A stretch of DNA of 64,000 nucleotides, from positions 2,976,001 to 3,040,000 of the forward strand of contig OZ024764.1 of the NCBI GenBank assembly GCA_964016885.1, read 5' to 3'. How positions within the stretch are numbered: the stretch's first letter is position 1; each line of letters opens with the position of its first letter. This stretch comes from Eledone cirrhosa. Lineage: Eukaryota. The notes below the pieces were generated by a model. The model saw nothing but the letters and a program-made list of their open reading frames with translations, was not told the DNA's origin and did not search any database. Shown here piece after piece: positions 704 through 60,261 of the stretch. A program made the translations under genes and the position numbers.

Positions 704-763
704 TTTATCTGATGAGGACGTACTGAAATAACAACACAGTACCTTTGAAATATATATAATAAA
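704..763 (+). ncRNA. Minimal hammerhead ribozyme motif, solo and sense to PBRM1
   Basis: TTTAT-CTGATGA-stem II (GTACTG/CAGTAC)-GAAA-TATATA-TA-ATAAA, directly after (TA)n. The base of stem II is imperfect. Confidence 0.65.
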
Positions 764-1118
764 GCATATATTTTGATTATGTGAATATCCTTCATTTGTT
801 AATATTTTGAATAATATATATATATTTAAAACTGTCTTCTTGATAATATTGACACACCATCTGATACATCATCATCATCGATTAACGTCCATCTTCCACA
901 CTAGCATGGGTTGGACGGGTCCCATTTAGACGCAAGTTGGGTTGGCTGCCCATGTCTCGTTCATATAGGGGTGTTTCTGGCTGGTTTTCTACGGCTGGAT
1001 GCCCTTCCTAACGCCAGTAGGTAATACATTAAGGGACCCACATTGTGGAATGCTTATGCCTGTTTACACTACAGGTCAACCAATGTTCCTTACTTGGAAT
1101 ATGGAATATATATATAGT

Positions 1119-1622
1119 GGAGGCACGTGGCCTAGTGGTAAGGGTGTTGGACTTATCATAATGTCGTGGGTTTGATTCCTGGGTTGTGTGTTGTGTTCTT
1201 GAGCAAAACACTTCATTTCACGTTGCTCCAGTATTCTAAGCTGAAAATGAGTACCAGTAATAGCTGGGAGTTTAACCCTGTGATGGACTGGTGTCCTGAC
1301 CAGAGGGAAGTCTTGTGCTCTGTCGCTTCATGTCATGACACCAGGATAAACACAGGCCAAATGAGCCTTCTAGCTTAAGACAGACTTTAACCTGTGATGG
1401 ACTGAGGTCTTGTCTAGTGGGGAGTATTGTACCCCCAAACACTTAACGCCACAGAAATTGGGATAAGCACTGCTCTGATGTCTTTCTAGCTTGGCACATA
1501 CTTTAACCTGTGATGGACTGGGGTCCTGTCCAGGAGGAAGTCTTGTACTCTCAGTCACTTCACACCATGTAACAGGGATAAGCACCGGCCAAATGAGCCT
1601 TCTGGCTTAAGACAGACTTTAG
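1119..1622 (+). mobile_element. tRNA-derived SINE variant with a tandemly triplicated 3' segment
   Basis: A box TGGCCTAGTGG, B-like GTTTGATTCC, cttgagcaaaacacttcatttcac core. The block tttaacc(c)tgtgatggactg occurs 3 times. Confidence 0.7.
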
Positions 1623-1771
1623 ACTTTGTTAGATATATATATATAGTAAAGGTGCTATTGGATCATTCACAGGTGGTATGCCAAGATGAGCACTCGATAA
1701 TATTGTGGAGCAGTGTATTAATAATAATTAGGGAACAAAGAATCAGTGTTGCATCATTTACATATTTAATT

Positions 1772-1862
1772 ACATATTACACATGTTTCACTGTCGATCA
1801 GTTCGAGGTACGATCGATTATGTTCTTTCCTGACTCTGGAATTGAAAGCTCCTCAGATGTGT
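1772..1862 (-). ncRNA. Hammerhead ribozyme motif with long stem II
   Basis: Reverse complement: ACACAT-CTGAGGA-(long stem II)-GAAA-CATGTG-TA-ATATGT. Same family as 6540-6635 (shared flank aagaatcagtgttgc). Confidence 0.6.
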
Positions 1863-56217: not shown

Positions 56218-56707
56218 AAATCTGATTTTGTTATATGTCGCAAGCAACATAAACCTCATCCTTCTTCTCAAATGCTGGCAGACATAATTGAAATAATTAT
56301 AATGAATAAATGATTTATGTAATATCTGCATCTTTTTAAATGTTATTCTAATACTGATTCTCCATCGTAACTACACACGACGTAGAGAGCTTTCCCCTGC
56401 TTACTCCTCTTTTTACCAAAACAACTTTTACTGAACACATCTAACCCATGCTAGCGTGGAAGATAGACGTTAAACGATGATGATGATACTTACACATATA
56501 TATATATATATATTTATATCAACATTTGATCGACTTTTGTCAAATCGGACCAAGGAAACAATGTTCCCATTGATCTTTCCAATTGCTAATACTATCTATT
56601 GGTCGCAACTCCAGGTAGAAGGAGCAACGTGAAATAAAGTGTCTTGCTCAAGGACATCTAAACAATTGTTAAAACAGCGAGGATCAGCTGCAAAGTGTAA
56701 ACAAATT

Positions 56708-57935
56708 GGTGTAGGTGGTGTCAGATGTACAATAACATGTGGTGGAGGAGGTGAGACAGGAGTTTCTGACAGTAATGTGTACCATATAGGTGGTGTCAGA
56801 TGTACAATAACATGTGGTGGAGGAGAGACAGGAGTTTCTGACAGTAATGTGTACCATATAGGAGGTGCCAGATGTACAATAACATGTGGTGGAGGTGAGA
56901 CAGGAGTTTCTGACAGTAATGTCTACCATATAGGAGTTGCCAGATGTACAATAACATGTGGTGGAGGAAGTGAGACGGGAGTTTCTGACAGTAATGTGTA
57001 CCATGTGGTGGAGGAGGTGAGACAGGAGTTTTTCACAGTAATGTGTACTAAAGTTACCTTGGTGTAGGTGGTGTCAGATGTACAATAACATGTCGTGGAG
57101 GAGGTGAGACAGGAGTTTCTGACAGTAATGTCTACCATATAGGTGGTGTCAGATGTACAATAACATGTGGTGGAGGAAGTGAGACAGGGGTTTCTGACAG
57201 TAATGTGTACCATATAGGTGGTGTCAGATGTACAATAACTTGTGGTGGAGGTGGTGAGACAGGGGTTTCTGATAGTAATGTCTACCATATAGGAGGTGCC
57301 AGATGTACAATAACATGTGTGGTGGAGGAGGTGAGACAGGAGTTTCTGACAGTAATGTCTACTATATAGGTGGTGTCAGATGTACAATAACATGTGGTGG
57401 AGGAGGTGAGACAGGAGTTTCTGATAGTAATGTCTACCATATAGGAGGTGCCAGATGTACAATAACATGTGGTGGAGGAGGTGAGACAGGAGTTTCTGAC
57501 AGTAATGTCTACTATATAGGTGGTGTCAGATGTACAATAACATGTGGTGGAGGAGGTGAGACAGGAGTTTCTGACAGTAATGTCTACCATATAGGTGGTG
57601 CCAGATGTACAATAACATGTGGTGGAGGAGGTGAGACAGTAATGTCTACCATACAGGTGGTGTCAGATATACAATAACATATGGTGGAGGAGGTGAGACA
57701 GGAGTTTCTGACAGTAATGTCTACCATACAGGTGGTGTCAGATATACAATAACATGTGGTGGAGGAGGTGAGACAGGAGCTTCTGACAGTAATGTATACC
57801 AAAGTTACCTTGGTGTAAAAGTAATACAGTAAAACCTGAAGTTTGCCCTCATTAAAATCATTTTCAAATTGCGCCCCTCCTCAAATATTCAAATGGTGCC
57901 CCTGTGGGGCGTGTACCCCTCGTTGGGAATCACTG
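56708..57935. repeat. 75-bp minisatellite (56708-57815) followed by a hAT-like terminus (gttgggaatcactg)
   Basis: About 14 units. The end's reverse complement CAGTGATTCCCAAC resembles hAT MITE TIRs, but the partner TIR was not found. Confidence 0.8.
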
Positions 57936-59212
57936 TCTTAGAGCAAACGTGTCGGGTAATGTCTAACATAGAGGTGTGCCTGGGTAGGAGCAAGTGGGTG
58001 GTGTCACTGTGGGAGTGCGCCTGGCCTTTGGGTGAGGGCCAGGGTTTGACGGGCAAAGTTTGGTGATGAGACGGAGAGGGAAGGGGTGCAAGTATTCATC
58101 GGGGAAGGTGAAATGGTTAAGGTCCGTCCTAGCCTTCCGTGCTAGCATGCGTTGGACGAGGAAGAATGGAGGCATGCGAGGACCTGAGAACTGTTGCACC
58201 ATCTCCCTATTTTTGGGGTTTTAGGGTTGGGTTGGGTTGGAAGGGGGTGTGGGGTGTACTATTTCTCTGTTTCATTGTTTGGAGTGGAGGGAGTGGGAAG
58301 GGGTGCTCATCCTTATGTTTGAAGGCTAATCCCCTTTTTAGGGAATCTCATATATATGTGTGTGTGTGTATATATATATGTGTGTGTATATATATATATG
58401 TGTGTGTGTGTATATATATATGTGTGTATGTATATATATATATATGTGTGTGTGTGTATATATATATATATGTGTGTGTATATATATATATATATGTTTG
58501 TATATATATATACACGTGTATGTATATATCTATATACACAGGTGTATATATATATATATGTTTGTATATATATATACACGTGTATGTATATATCTATATA
58601 CACATGTATATATATATATATATATATATATGGATGTGTGTGTGTGTATATATATGGATGTGTGTGTGTGTATATATATATGTGTGTGTATGTGTGTGTA
58701 TATATATGTATGTGTGTGTGTATATATGTATATGTGTGTGTGTGTATATATATATGTGTGTGTGTGTATACATATATATACATGTTTATATCTATATACA
58801 TGTGTATGTATATATCTATATACACATGTGTATATATATGTGTGTGTGTATATATATATATATATATATATATGTATATATATATATATATATACAGCGA
58901 TTAATTTGTTTTGCAATGTTTTTGATATGAAATCCTGTGTTGAAACAAATATGGTTATACTTGGGGAGGGTCATATTGTAATAATATTGCCAGAAATAAT
59001 AACAGAACACACTCACTGTTTGGTTGGTTCTCACTTCTGTATCTTTTATATCTCCATAGTTAATTTATCTAGCAATCAATGTTTATCATTGACATTGACC
59101 AACAGTTAAAAATATAGATATAAACACATATATATATATATATACACGTTATTCCAGGTTGAGTCAGAGGTAACCACAGTAAGTAAGGTACTCAATACAT
59201 TGCAGAGTATAA

Positions 59213-59342
59213 AAGTTTTAATATAGATGAGATTCTACAGGACTAGAACTGTTTCATTCTTTAGAAATCATCAGGAATTCCTGATGATTTCTAAAGAATG
59301 AAACAGATCTAGTCCTGTAGAATCTCATCTATATTAAAACTT
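59213..59342. repeat. Loop-less palindrome centred on GAATTC with two back-to-back hammerhead cores
   Basis: tcatcag-gaattc-ctgatga-tttctaaagaat-gaaa-cagatctagtc. About 65-bp arms with one mismatch. Confidence 0.85.
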
Positions 59343-60261
59343 ATATATATATAGTCTGTTATAGTTCTTTTGTCACACACCTGTGACATCATCAGTGATA
59401 CTGTTATGTTTCCTCCCGTTGTATTGCTGTAATGTTTTCGTAATCTATTCTATTTTATTTATTTATTATTGTCTCTGTATGCTCCTAATAGTATCCGGAT
59501 GGTTGTTTATATATTGTCAAAGCTCTTTCGTCACACATTCTGTGACCTCCTCAGTGGCTAATTTGTTATTTTGTGCCTCTCCTTTGATCTGTCCTACACC
59601 ATCTTGTGACCAGTAGATAGTATCAGCAATGGAAACATTGTTTCCGTGCTCCGATTTGACGATTGCCACCCCAACTCGATATGCAATTGACATTTGGGAT
59701 CTTGTTGATTGAACTCTATCAGGGTCAATAACCCCTCTCCATGTCATAATTTCACCCCAACTGCCAGTTCTTTATTCGTTTTCGTTATTATAGCTATCAC
59801 TGTTCTCTTTCCCCCTTATCTTCTCCTTCACCATCCTCTCATGTAACCCATTCCCTTGTTATATGGTGACCTTTAGTCAAGTCCAGTCCAAGGCCCTCTC
59901 ACTTCCGTAGGAGGCAACCCTCCCTCGCTGACCTCCACCACTTTCTGTTTGGTTTTGATTATGTGGCCGTTCTCACCCCACTTGGCCAATCGTGGGTTGG
60001 TGAGTCTAACAGATAACTCCCAATATATATATATATATATATAAAGTACCCAGCCCACACTGTAAAGGTGGTTGGTGCTAGGAAGAGCATCCTGCCATAG
60101 AAAACCAGCCAGAAACTGTTCTGTGCGAGTGAAACAAGGTCACCTAACCCAACTTGCCTCTAAATGGGACCCGTCTAACCCATGCTAGCATGGAAAGATA
60201 GGCGTTAAATGATGATGATATATATTATTAAAAGATCAGAGGCCATATTCAGTTGATTCAG

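What the first reader, a model, noticed from the sequence alone, without database searches (positions are those of the whole stretch)
704..59558. Strand asymmetry: unmasked core-intact ribozymes are antisense to PBRM1, while sense copies are broken or masked by a mirror arm
Hand count of core-intact hammerheads lacking an intact mirror copy: 8 on the minus strand (1772, 6540, 20448, 27665, 43641, 48588, 56127, 59516) versus 1 on plus (704). The two-sided binomial p is about 0.04, on a small hand-picked sample. The other plus-strand copies (23945, 34068, 49910, 50513, 50993) each lie downstream of their own reverse complement, so nascent RNA would fold them into a hairpin. Several plus arms have lost the core: deletion near 20605, TTGAAGA near 5923 and 60428, missing 5' half near 27225 and 56287. 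Inference: selection removes ribozymes able to cut the host pre-mRNA, which would imply they are active in vivo. This assumes the gene continues across the whole window.
Basis: partly seen in the sequence, partly recalled or inferred. Interest (0 to 1): 0.72.

Follow-up and report, generated by a model that had tools for sequence, protein, structure and literature searches.

The report
Penelope hammerheads, weak antisense lean only
The introns of this PBRM1 gene hold many scraps of jumping genes carrying tiny self-cutting-RNA motifs; most face away from the gene here, but in other genes the lean is only about 60:40 and is shared by dead copies, so it likely does not show that the ribozymes cut the gene's RNA.

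Summary
The hammerhead motifs are real (descriptor 122 hits vs 3 in reversed/complemented controls), and the whole window lies inside a + strand PBRM1 gene. They are minimal type I hammerheads on Penelope-like (PLE) end fragments; one window family also ends a full RT + GIY-YIG element elsewhere. The local count is 8-10 antisense vs 1-2 sense. 'Masking' carries no strand information: mirror arms lie upstream in 90 of 92 mirrored copies on either strand, the known PLE inverted insertion. Five broken antisense copies were left out. In 1.83 Mb of held-out introns (rest of PBRM1 plus 19 genes), intact unmirrored copies were 40 sense : 62 antisense (p=0.037; gene-level p=0.10; other genes alone 36:51, p=0.13). 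Dead copies leaned alike (23:33 vs intact 28:46, Fisher p=0.72). A ribozyme-free SINE was more strongly biased (196:110, sense). Helix III was predicted unformed in 100 of 102 solo copies. Residual, post hoc: the largest family (3:16) and same-strand clusters (3:11), which would fit dimer-only cutting. This scan's notes report similar null results in other genomes.

The parts
3279..3364 (+). PBRM1 exon (end of a bromodomain)
   Evidence: tblastn with P0001/P0002; joined to the next exon in transcript-like contig of X4
13133..13345 (+). PBRM1 exon
   Evidence: 94% to Octopus sinensis polybromo-1; spliced on both sides in X4 contig
21862..21931 (+). PBRM1 exon (bromodomain)
28341..28439 (+). PBRM1 exon (bromodomain end); followed by a 36-kb intron that runs past the window end
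701..766 (+). Intact minimal hammerhead, sense, no mirror (family 0)
1770..1864 (-). Intact minimal hammerhead with long branched helix II, antisense solo
5259..6039 (.). Fold-back insertion split by a SINE; both arms carry G12->A, + arm also C3->U (dead on both strands)
6539..6636 (-). Intact-core hammerhead, antisense solo (first helix II pair is a mismatch)
8158..8231 (-). Broken antisense copy (GAAA box lost), same family as 56212
20448..20687 (.). Fold-back: intact - hammerhead (20448-20508), + arm with internal deletion
23779..24005 (.). Symmetric fold-back, both hammerheads intact and both predicted masked
27231..27327 (+). 5'-truncated sense copy lacking the CUGA box (family 0)
27590..27825 (.). 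Fold-back: intact - hammerhead (27662-27706), + arm truncated before the ribozyme; family 4, identical to the hammerhead ending a full PLE ORF at L217
33893..34132 (.). Symmetric fold-back, both hammerheads intact and both predicted masked
43637..43687 (-). Intact hammerhead with extra nucleotide after A9, antisense solo (family 2)
48586..48663 (-). Intact hammerhead, antisense solo
49827..49972 (.). Symmetric fold-back, both intact, both predicted masked
50114..50213 (-). Broken antisense solo (G12->A, helix II deletion; family 2)
50349..50582 (.). Symmetric fold-back, both intact, both predicted masked
50774..51090 (.). Fold-back in which the SENSE arm (50991-51064) is intact and the antisense arm is core-mutated (GAAG)
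56124..56347 (.). Fold-back: intact-core - hammerhead (56124-56220), + arm 5'-truncated
59169..59345 (.). Short fold-back: - copy core-intact (CUGA at 59274), + copy U16.1->A
59342..59409 (-). Broken antisense solo (G12->A; family 2)
59512..59562 (-). Intact-core hammerhead, antisense solo (family 2)
60272..60833 (.). Fold-back: - core intact but helix I weak (60272-60337); + arm with TTGAAGA, SINE insertion and lost GAAA

Best explanation
These are minimal type I hammerheads on end fragments of Penelope-like retrotransposons in PBRM1 introns, likely idle there, and the 8:1 count is likely a local extreme of a weak (about 60:40) antisense lean that affects these fragments whether or not their core is intact. 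Shown: motifs, gene, link of one family to an RT + GIY-YIG ORF, upstream mirror geometry, out-of-sample counts. Inferred: each insertion comes from PLE reverse transcription at (TA)n targets and often adds an inverted 5'-truncated copy, which creates the 'mirror arm' on both strands at once and explains the truncated arms. The 2-8 nt, often palindromic helix III needs a second copy (dimer) or PLE protein to fold, so solo copies would cut slowly or not at all, and slow intronic ribozymes leave splicing unharmed. Cores then decay neutrally, mostly at CpG. The cause of the weak lean (insertion strand preference or selection on splice/termination signals) is not determined.
For: Held-out intact solos 40:62, 61%, CI 51-70%; gene-level sign flip p=0.10, without PBRM1 p=0.19. 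Dead copies 23:33 vs intact 28:46, Fisher p=0.72. One-arm-truncated fold-backs 9 sense: 6 antisense. Isolated solos 34:36. A15.1-U16.1 pair probability above 0.5 in 1 of 40 sense and 1 of 62 antisense solos; predicted foldability does not differ by orientation. G12->A changes sit after a C in 10 of 11 cases. Ribozyme-free SINE 196:110 sense, 15 of 19 genes. Family 4 hammerhead 386-389 nt behind a >=649-aa RT + GIY-YIG ORF. Literature passages: PMC4209133, PMC8557442, PMC11167929, PMC10919898, PMC2911107.
Against: The pooled lean is nominally significant (p=0.037) and stronger for best-formed copies (score >=10.5: 14:33, p=0.008). Family 0 solos are 3:16 (p=0.004; gene-level p=0.016) while its dead copies are 4:3. 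Same-strand clusters are 3:11 at 3 kb (p=0.057; neighbour permutation p=0.016). Core-mutated mirrors are 6 sense-broken: 3 antisense-broken. The dead-copy control is small (n=56), and dead antisense copies could inherit a bias set when they were intact.
Confidence: 0.72

Rival explanations
1. Dimer-gated selection: single copies are harmless, but sense copies with a same-strand partner nearby, or of the abundant family 0 whose palindromic (UA)n helix III finds partners easily, can form the active dimer, cut the pre-mRNA and are purged.
For: Isolated solos 34:36 but same-strand clusters 3:11 (3 kb) and 3:13 (5 kb); adjacent pairs 15 antisense-antisense vs 3 sense-sense. Family 0 solos 3:16. Dimer requirement is published (PMC4209133).
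Against: All cuts are post hoc among many. Only 4 of 15 antisense-antisense pairs have compatible helix III strands. Family 0 truncated fold-backs are 3 sense: 0 antisense. The pre-registered batch gave 4:4 with no family 0 solos. Local same-strand clustering of insertions inflates these p-values.
Confidence: 0.15
2. One reading: any intact, unmasked sense hammerhead cuts the pre-mRNA and is selected out.
For: Window 8-10: 1-2; held-out PBRM1 introns 4:11; pooled held-out p=0.037. Fast intronic ribozymes can impair splicing (Fong et al. 2009 as cited in PMC10919898).
Against: 40 intact unmirrored sense copies in 1.83 Mb, 14 with score >=10.5 and four of those in PBRM1 itself. Same lean in dead copies. 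A full PLE with intact hammerhead sits sense in a myosin intron. Monomer helix III is predicted unformed.
Confidence: 0.06
3. There is no true bias at all; the 60:40 is chance plus local clustering of insertions.
For: Counting same-strand clusters as one unit gives 37:47, p=0.33; other genes alone p=0.13; five genes lean sense.
Against: The first two batches of other genes gave the same 58-59%; + and - strand genes both lean antisense (61%, 56%); dead copies lean the same way.
Confidence: 0.07

Closest known systems
Minimal hammerheads (min-HHR) in pLTRs of metazoan Penelope-like elements (Cervera and De la Pena 2014, PMC4209133)
   Same: Type I order, short palindromic helix III, long variable helix II, extra nucleotide after A9 in some families, mostly solo copies from truncated PLEs, pairs 100-700 bp apart on opposite strands.
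   Different: Many families here have A10.1-U11.1 or other pairs instead of G10.1-C11.1; host is a cephalopod-like genome; the two parts of the paper that I read do not treat orientation to host genes.
EN+ PLE insertion units with an inverted 5'-truncated copy at the 5' end (Craig et al. 2021, PMC8557442)
   Same: Mirror arm upstream of the ribozyme (90 vs 2), variable truncation, (TA)n flanks, RT then C-terminal GIY-YIG in the linked ORF.
   Different: Window copies are non-coding stumps of 100-250 nt; the clade of the linked ORF was not placed on a tree.
Antisense bias of intronic TEs (LTR, L1, Drosophila LINE and DNA transposons; PMC2911107)
   Same: A modest orientation lean of intronic insertions.
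   Different: Here the lean is weak and of unknown cause; a SINE in the same introns leans sense.
Intronic CPEB3 ribozyme that tunes host splicing (PMC10919898)
   Same: Self-cleaving motif inside an intron of a transcribed gene.
   Different: CPEB3 is a conserved, monomer-active ribozyme; these are dispersed TE remnants predicted inactive as monomers.

Membership tests
Type I minimal hammerhead (PLE min-HHR) | CUGANGA, GAAA and UH boxes in type I order with helices I and II | tested here: met
   (122 vs 3 control hits)
Type I minimal hammerhead (PLE min-HHR) | Short, often palindromic helix III that does not form in the monomer | tested here: met
   Insert 2-8 nt, exact palindrome in 97 of 204; A15.1-U16.1 above 0.5 in 2 of 102 solos (prediction)
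Type I minimal hammerhead (PLE min-HHR) | Self-cleavage as dimer or with protein | not testable with these tools
   Needs an in vitro assay; only contigs were available
Type I minimal hammerhead (PLE min-HHR) | Match to an Rfam hammerhead model | tested here: not met
   No hammerhead family at gathering score nor among the 150 of 398 rows shown at E<=10; a homology score, not a mechanistic criterion
EN+ Penelope-like element | Hammerhead-bearing end linked to an ORF with RT and C-terminal GIY-YIG | tested here: met
   Family 4 only: L217:1-1950, RVT_1 E=8e-7 (29.4 bits, cut-off 29.6) and GIY-YIG E=1.3e-6, hammerhead identical to window 27698
EN+ Penelope-like element | Same ORF link for the other window families | tested here: inconclusive
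   25 GIY-YIG loci held 6 hammerheads without a consistent position; two ORF remnants in 1.96 Mb
EN+ Penelope-like element | Inverted 5'-truncated copy at the 5' end | tested here: met
   Mirror upstream 90, downstream 2 of 209
Non-LTR retrozyme (tandem HHR repeats) | Head-to-tail tandem monomers each with a hammerhead | tested here: not met
   None of the descriptor-passing window copies lies in a tandem array
Host-regulating or counter-selected intronic ribozyme | Orientation bias specific to catalytically intact copies | tested here: not met
   Intact 28:46 vs dead 23:33, Fisher p=0.72; low power, family 0 is an exception

The most novel reading that the evidence does not exclude
Penelope minimal hammerheads do cut host pre-mRNA in vivo, but only as dimers: selection purges sense-strand same-orientation pairs and the abundant (UA)n-palindrome family while ignoring isolated copies, leaving a genomic footprint of dimer-gated activity (isolated 34:36, clusters 3:11, family 0 3:16).
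Probability: 0.15. Interest if true: 0.65.

Novelty: new member of a known kind. Interest (0 to 1): 0.25.

Why it matters
Whether the tens of thousands of PLE hammerheads in animal genomes ever cut RNA in cells is open: PMC4209133 reports no in vivo evidence, and PMC11167929 found no RNA-seq ends at the site. Orientation bias in introns would be a cheap genome-scale test. Here the simple version fails its controls, so the window is ordinary transposon litter. The remaining dimer-gated hint defines a precise genome-wide test in an annotated cephalopod genome.

Tried and rejected
Rfam found no hammerhead model. A relaxed descriptor with one core mismatch printed no rows, so broken copies were found by homology instead. 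First homology controls were contaminated by SINE sequence and a tandem repeat; their large 'truncated' counts (e.g. 80:141) are not PLE counts and were rejected. The clean control uses 18 multi-member families from batches 1-2, leaving out family 11, singletons and batch 3. Families 29, 32, 48, 64 were judged non-ribozyme repeats after inspection and dropped (43:64 before, 40:62 after). The window hit at 28417 overlaps an exon and was dropped. A poly(A)-signal explanation was not supported: solos with AATAAA 17:30, without 23:32, and the sense-leaning SINE carries AATAAA on its sense strand. Exact helix III palindromy did not change the lean (18:29 vs 22:33). Other control repeats (SINE_A, LINE pieces, others) showed no significant lean. 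Window 60802 (-) and 60293 (+) are the reverse complement of a helix II, not ribozymes. An exon-like 36-mer at 32524-32559 is not needed by the cuttlefish protein. No RNA holder was listed; run X4 behaved as spliced contigs but contigs cannot show cleavage ends. The pre-registered batch was cut from 190 to 100 kb and was uninformative (4:4). No intergenic control was possible without annotation. Searches for a paper testing host-strand orientation of PLE hammerheads listed none by title or abstract; most subscription papers are outside that library, and no supplements were read.
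Full report
Host gene. The exon at 13133-13345 is 94% identical to Octopus sinensis polybromo-1 and 62% to cuttlefish PBRM1, so the genome is cephalopod-like (inference). tblastn with the full 1779-aa cuttlefish protein gives colinear + strand exons from about 47.6 kb upstream of the window to at least 97.7 kb downstream. 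Bromodomain and BAH hits agree. After 28439 the next exon starts 579 bases past the window end and continues the protein without a gap. A contig of run X4 joins 13133-13345 to both neighbouring exons. Its remaining length (198 = 70 + 99 + 29) and the start of a second contig fit direct splicing across the 36-kb intron; this is arithmetic, not a displayed joint.

The motifs. Rfam found no hammerhead. A type I descriptor (helix I, CUGANGA, helix II, GAAA, 2-8 nt, UH) recovers all nine listed copies. At score >=8.5 it gives 122 hits in 1.06 Mb against 3 in reversed and complemented sequence. The copies fall into many families (66 clusters), usually ending in (TA)n. The family of window 27698 also lies 386-389 nt behind a >=649-aa ORF with RVT_1 and C-terminal GIY-YIG matches, the EN+ PLE layout. 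A GIY-YIG search had 10,596 first-look candidates in this genome. The ORF link was shown for that one family only.

The local count. Two further - copies make it 10:2, p=0.039. So the asymmetry is there but borderline; under a 60% lean, 8 of 9 has probability 0.07.

Masking. Mirrors lie upstream of 90 and downstream of 2 of 209 hits. This is the inverted 5'-truncated copy described for PLE insertions (PMC8557442, passages). In such a fold-back each strand's copy follows its own reverse complement, and both are predicted fully paired. It says nothing about host strand.

Broken arms. Five broken antisense copies were omitted (8225, 50199, 50900, 59395, 5259-5779). Both arms of the 5923 insertion share G12->A. 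G12->A is the commonest core change and follows a C in 10 of 11 cases, as expected for CpG decay (inference).

Out-of-sample test. I oriented 19 other genes (dyneins, myosins, four-domain ion channels) by colinear Pfam exon hits and scanned them with the rest of PBRM1, 1.83 Mb in all. Nested or antisense genes are not excluded. Intact unmirrored copies were 43 sense: 64 antisense, and 40:62 after dropping four non-ribozyme repeat families (61%, CI 51-70%, p=0.037). Other genes alone gave 36:51 (p=0.13) and a gene-level sign flip gave p=0.10. Held-out PBRM1 gave 4:11. A pre-registered last batch (note) gave 4:4.

Controls. In 18 multi-member families from the first two batches, intact solos were 28:46 and core-mutated or truncated solos 23:33 (Fisher p=0.72). 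Fold-backs with one intact and one truncated arm were 9 sense: 6 antisense; with one core-mutated arm, 3:6. A ribozyme-free tRNA-type SINE was 196 sense: 110 antisense (p=1e-6, 15 of 19 genes). Other control repeats showed no significant lean. Orientation leans of intronic TEs are published for other animals (PMC2911107, passages). Predicted helix formation did not differ by orientation, and the helix III closing pair exceeded 0.5 in 2 of 102 solos.

Published activity. A single S. mansoni min-HHR showed no cleavage and dimers little (PMC4209133, parts 1-2 of 4 read). The Anolis PLE hammerhead needed protein, and no RNA-seq reads ended at its site (PMC11167929, passages). Slow intronic ribozymes left splicing unaffected and fast ones did not (Fong 2009 as cited in PMC10919898, passages). 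Xenopus retrozymes are depleted in introns, with no orientation analysis in the passages found (bioRxiv 10.64898/2026.07.22.740005). PMC3365414 gave only a reference line.

Results against my reading. The lean is stronger at score >=10.5 (14:33, p=0.008). It is concentrated in family 0 (3:16, p=0.004; gene-level p=0.016; its dead copies 4:3) and in same-strand clusters (3:11 at 3 kb, p=0.057; neighbour permutation p=0.016), while isolated solos are 34:36. That pattern would fit dimer-only cutting. It is post hoc, only 4 of 15 antisense pairs have compatible helix III, and family 0's truncated fold-backs go 3:0 the other way.

Verdict. Real PLE minimal hammerheads in PBRM1 introns; a weak antisense lean that is not specific to intact cores; no evidence of in vivo cutting. 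The descriptor covers only type I order, so permuted hammerheads that other notes of this scan report in this genome (untested here) are not counted. Earlier notes on other genomes reached similar conclusions; they were seen after my test and are not independent support.

Noticed in passing
window 54863-55050 (SINE_B family; also near 4724, 11060, 43391, 61417): A ribozyme-free tRNA-type SINE is sense-biased in held-out introns, 196:110 (p=1e-6, 15 of 19 genes). Its reverse strand has a T-rich tract followed by AG, so selection against cryptic acceptors is a possible cause (untested).
   Followed up: partly
L217:1-2520 (G000:C2, myosin intron): Near-complete Penelope-like element with an open RT + GIY-YIG frame of at least 649 aa and an intact hammerhead, inserted sense to the host gene.
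   Followed up: partly
L018:8516 and L019:2156 (PBRM1 downstream introns): Two identical sense, core-intact hammerheads with an 8-nt helix III insert sit at the centre of about 150-bp inverted repeats that extend helix I; good candidates for a monomer assay.
   Followed up: no
window 32524-32559 (+): A 36-nt in-frame exon-like segment after a pyrimidine tract and AG; not needed by the cuttlefish protein, possibly an alternative exon or chance.
   Followed up: partly
window 28341-28439 and L016:579-644: The O. sinensis polybromo-1 record (598 aa) ends at the exon before the 36-kb intron, and X4 contigs break at the exon after it with higher depth downstream (14 vs 25), hinting at a split annotation or a second isoform.
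   Followed up: no
window 1-405, 13741-15096, 15415-16367, 16749-18853, 30554-31865, 34969-36207, 41378-42254, 43761-45216, 57065-57801, 62149-62738: Many 48-79-nt minisatellite arrays; the 48- and 112-nt arrays resemble amplified internal pieces of the common SINE.
   Followed up: no
window 24008-25168 (+), 37500-40600 (-), 6680-7800 (+), 45220-46290 (-): Degraded LINE-like RT fragments, labelled RTE-like from recall; no significant orientation lean in held-out introns.
   Followed up: partly
window 25747-25924, 8692-9535, 52804-53429, 54025-55526: Long near-perfect inverted repeats without a type I hammerhead by my descriptor; permuted hammerheads were not searched for.
   Followed up: no
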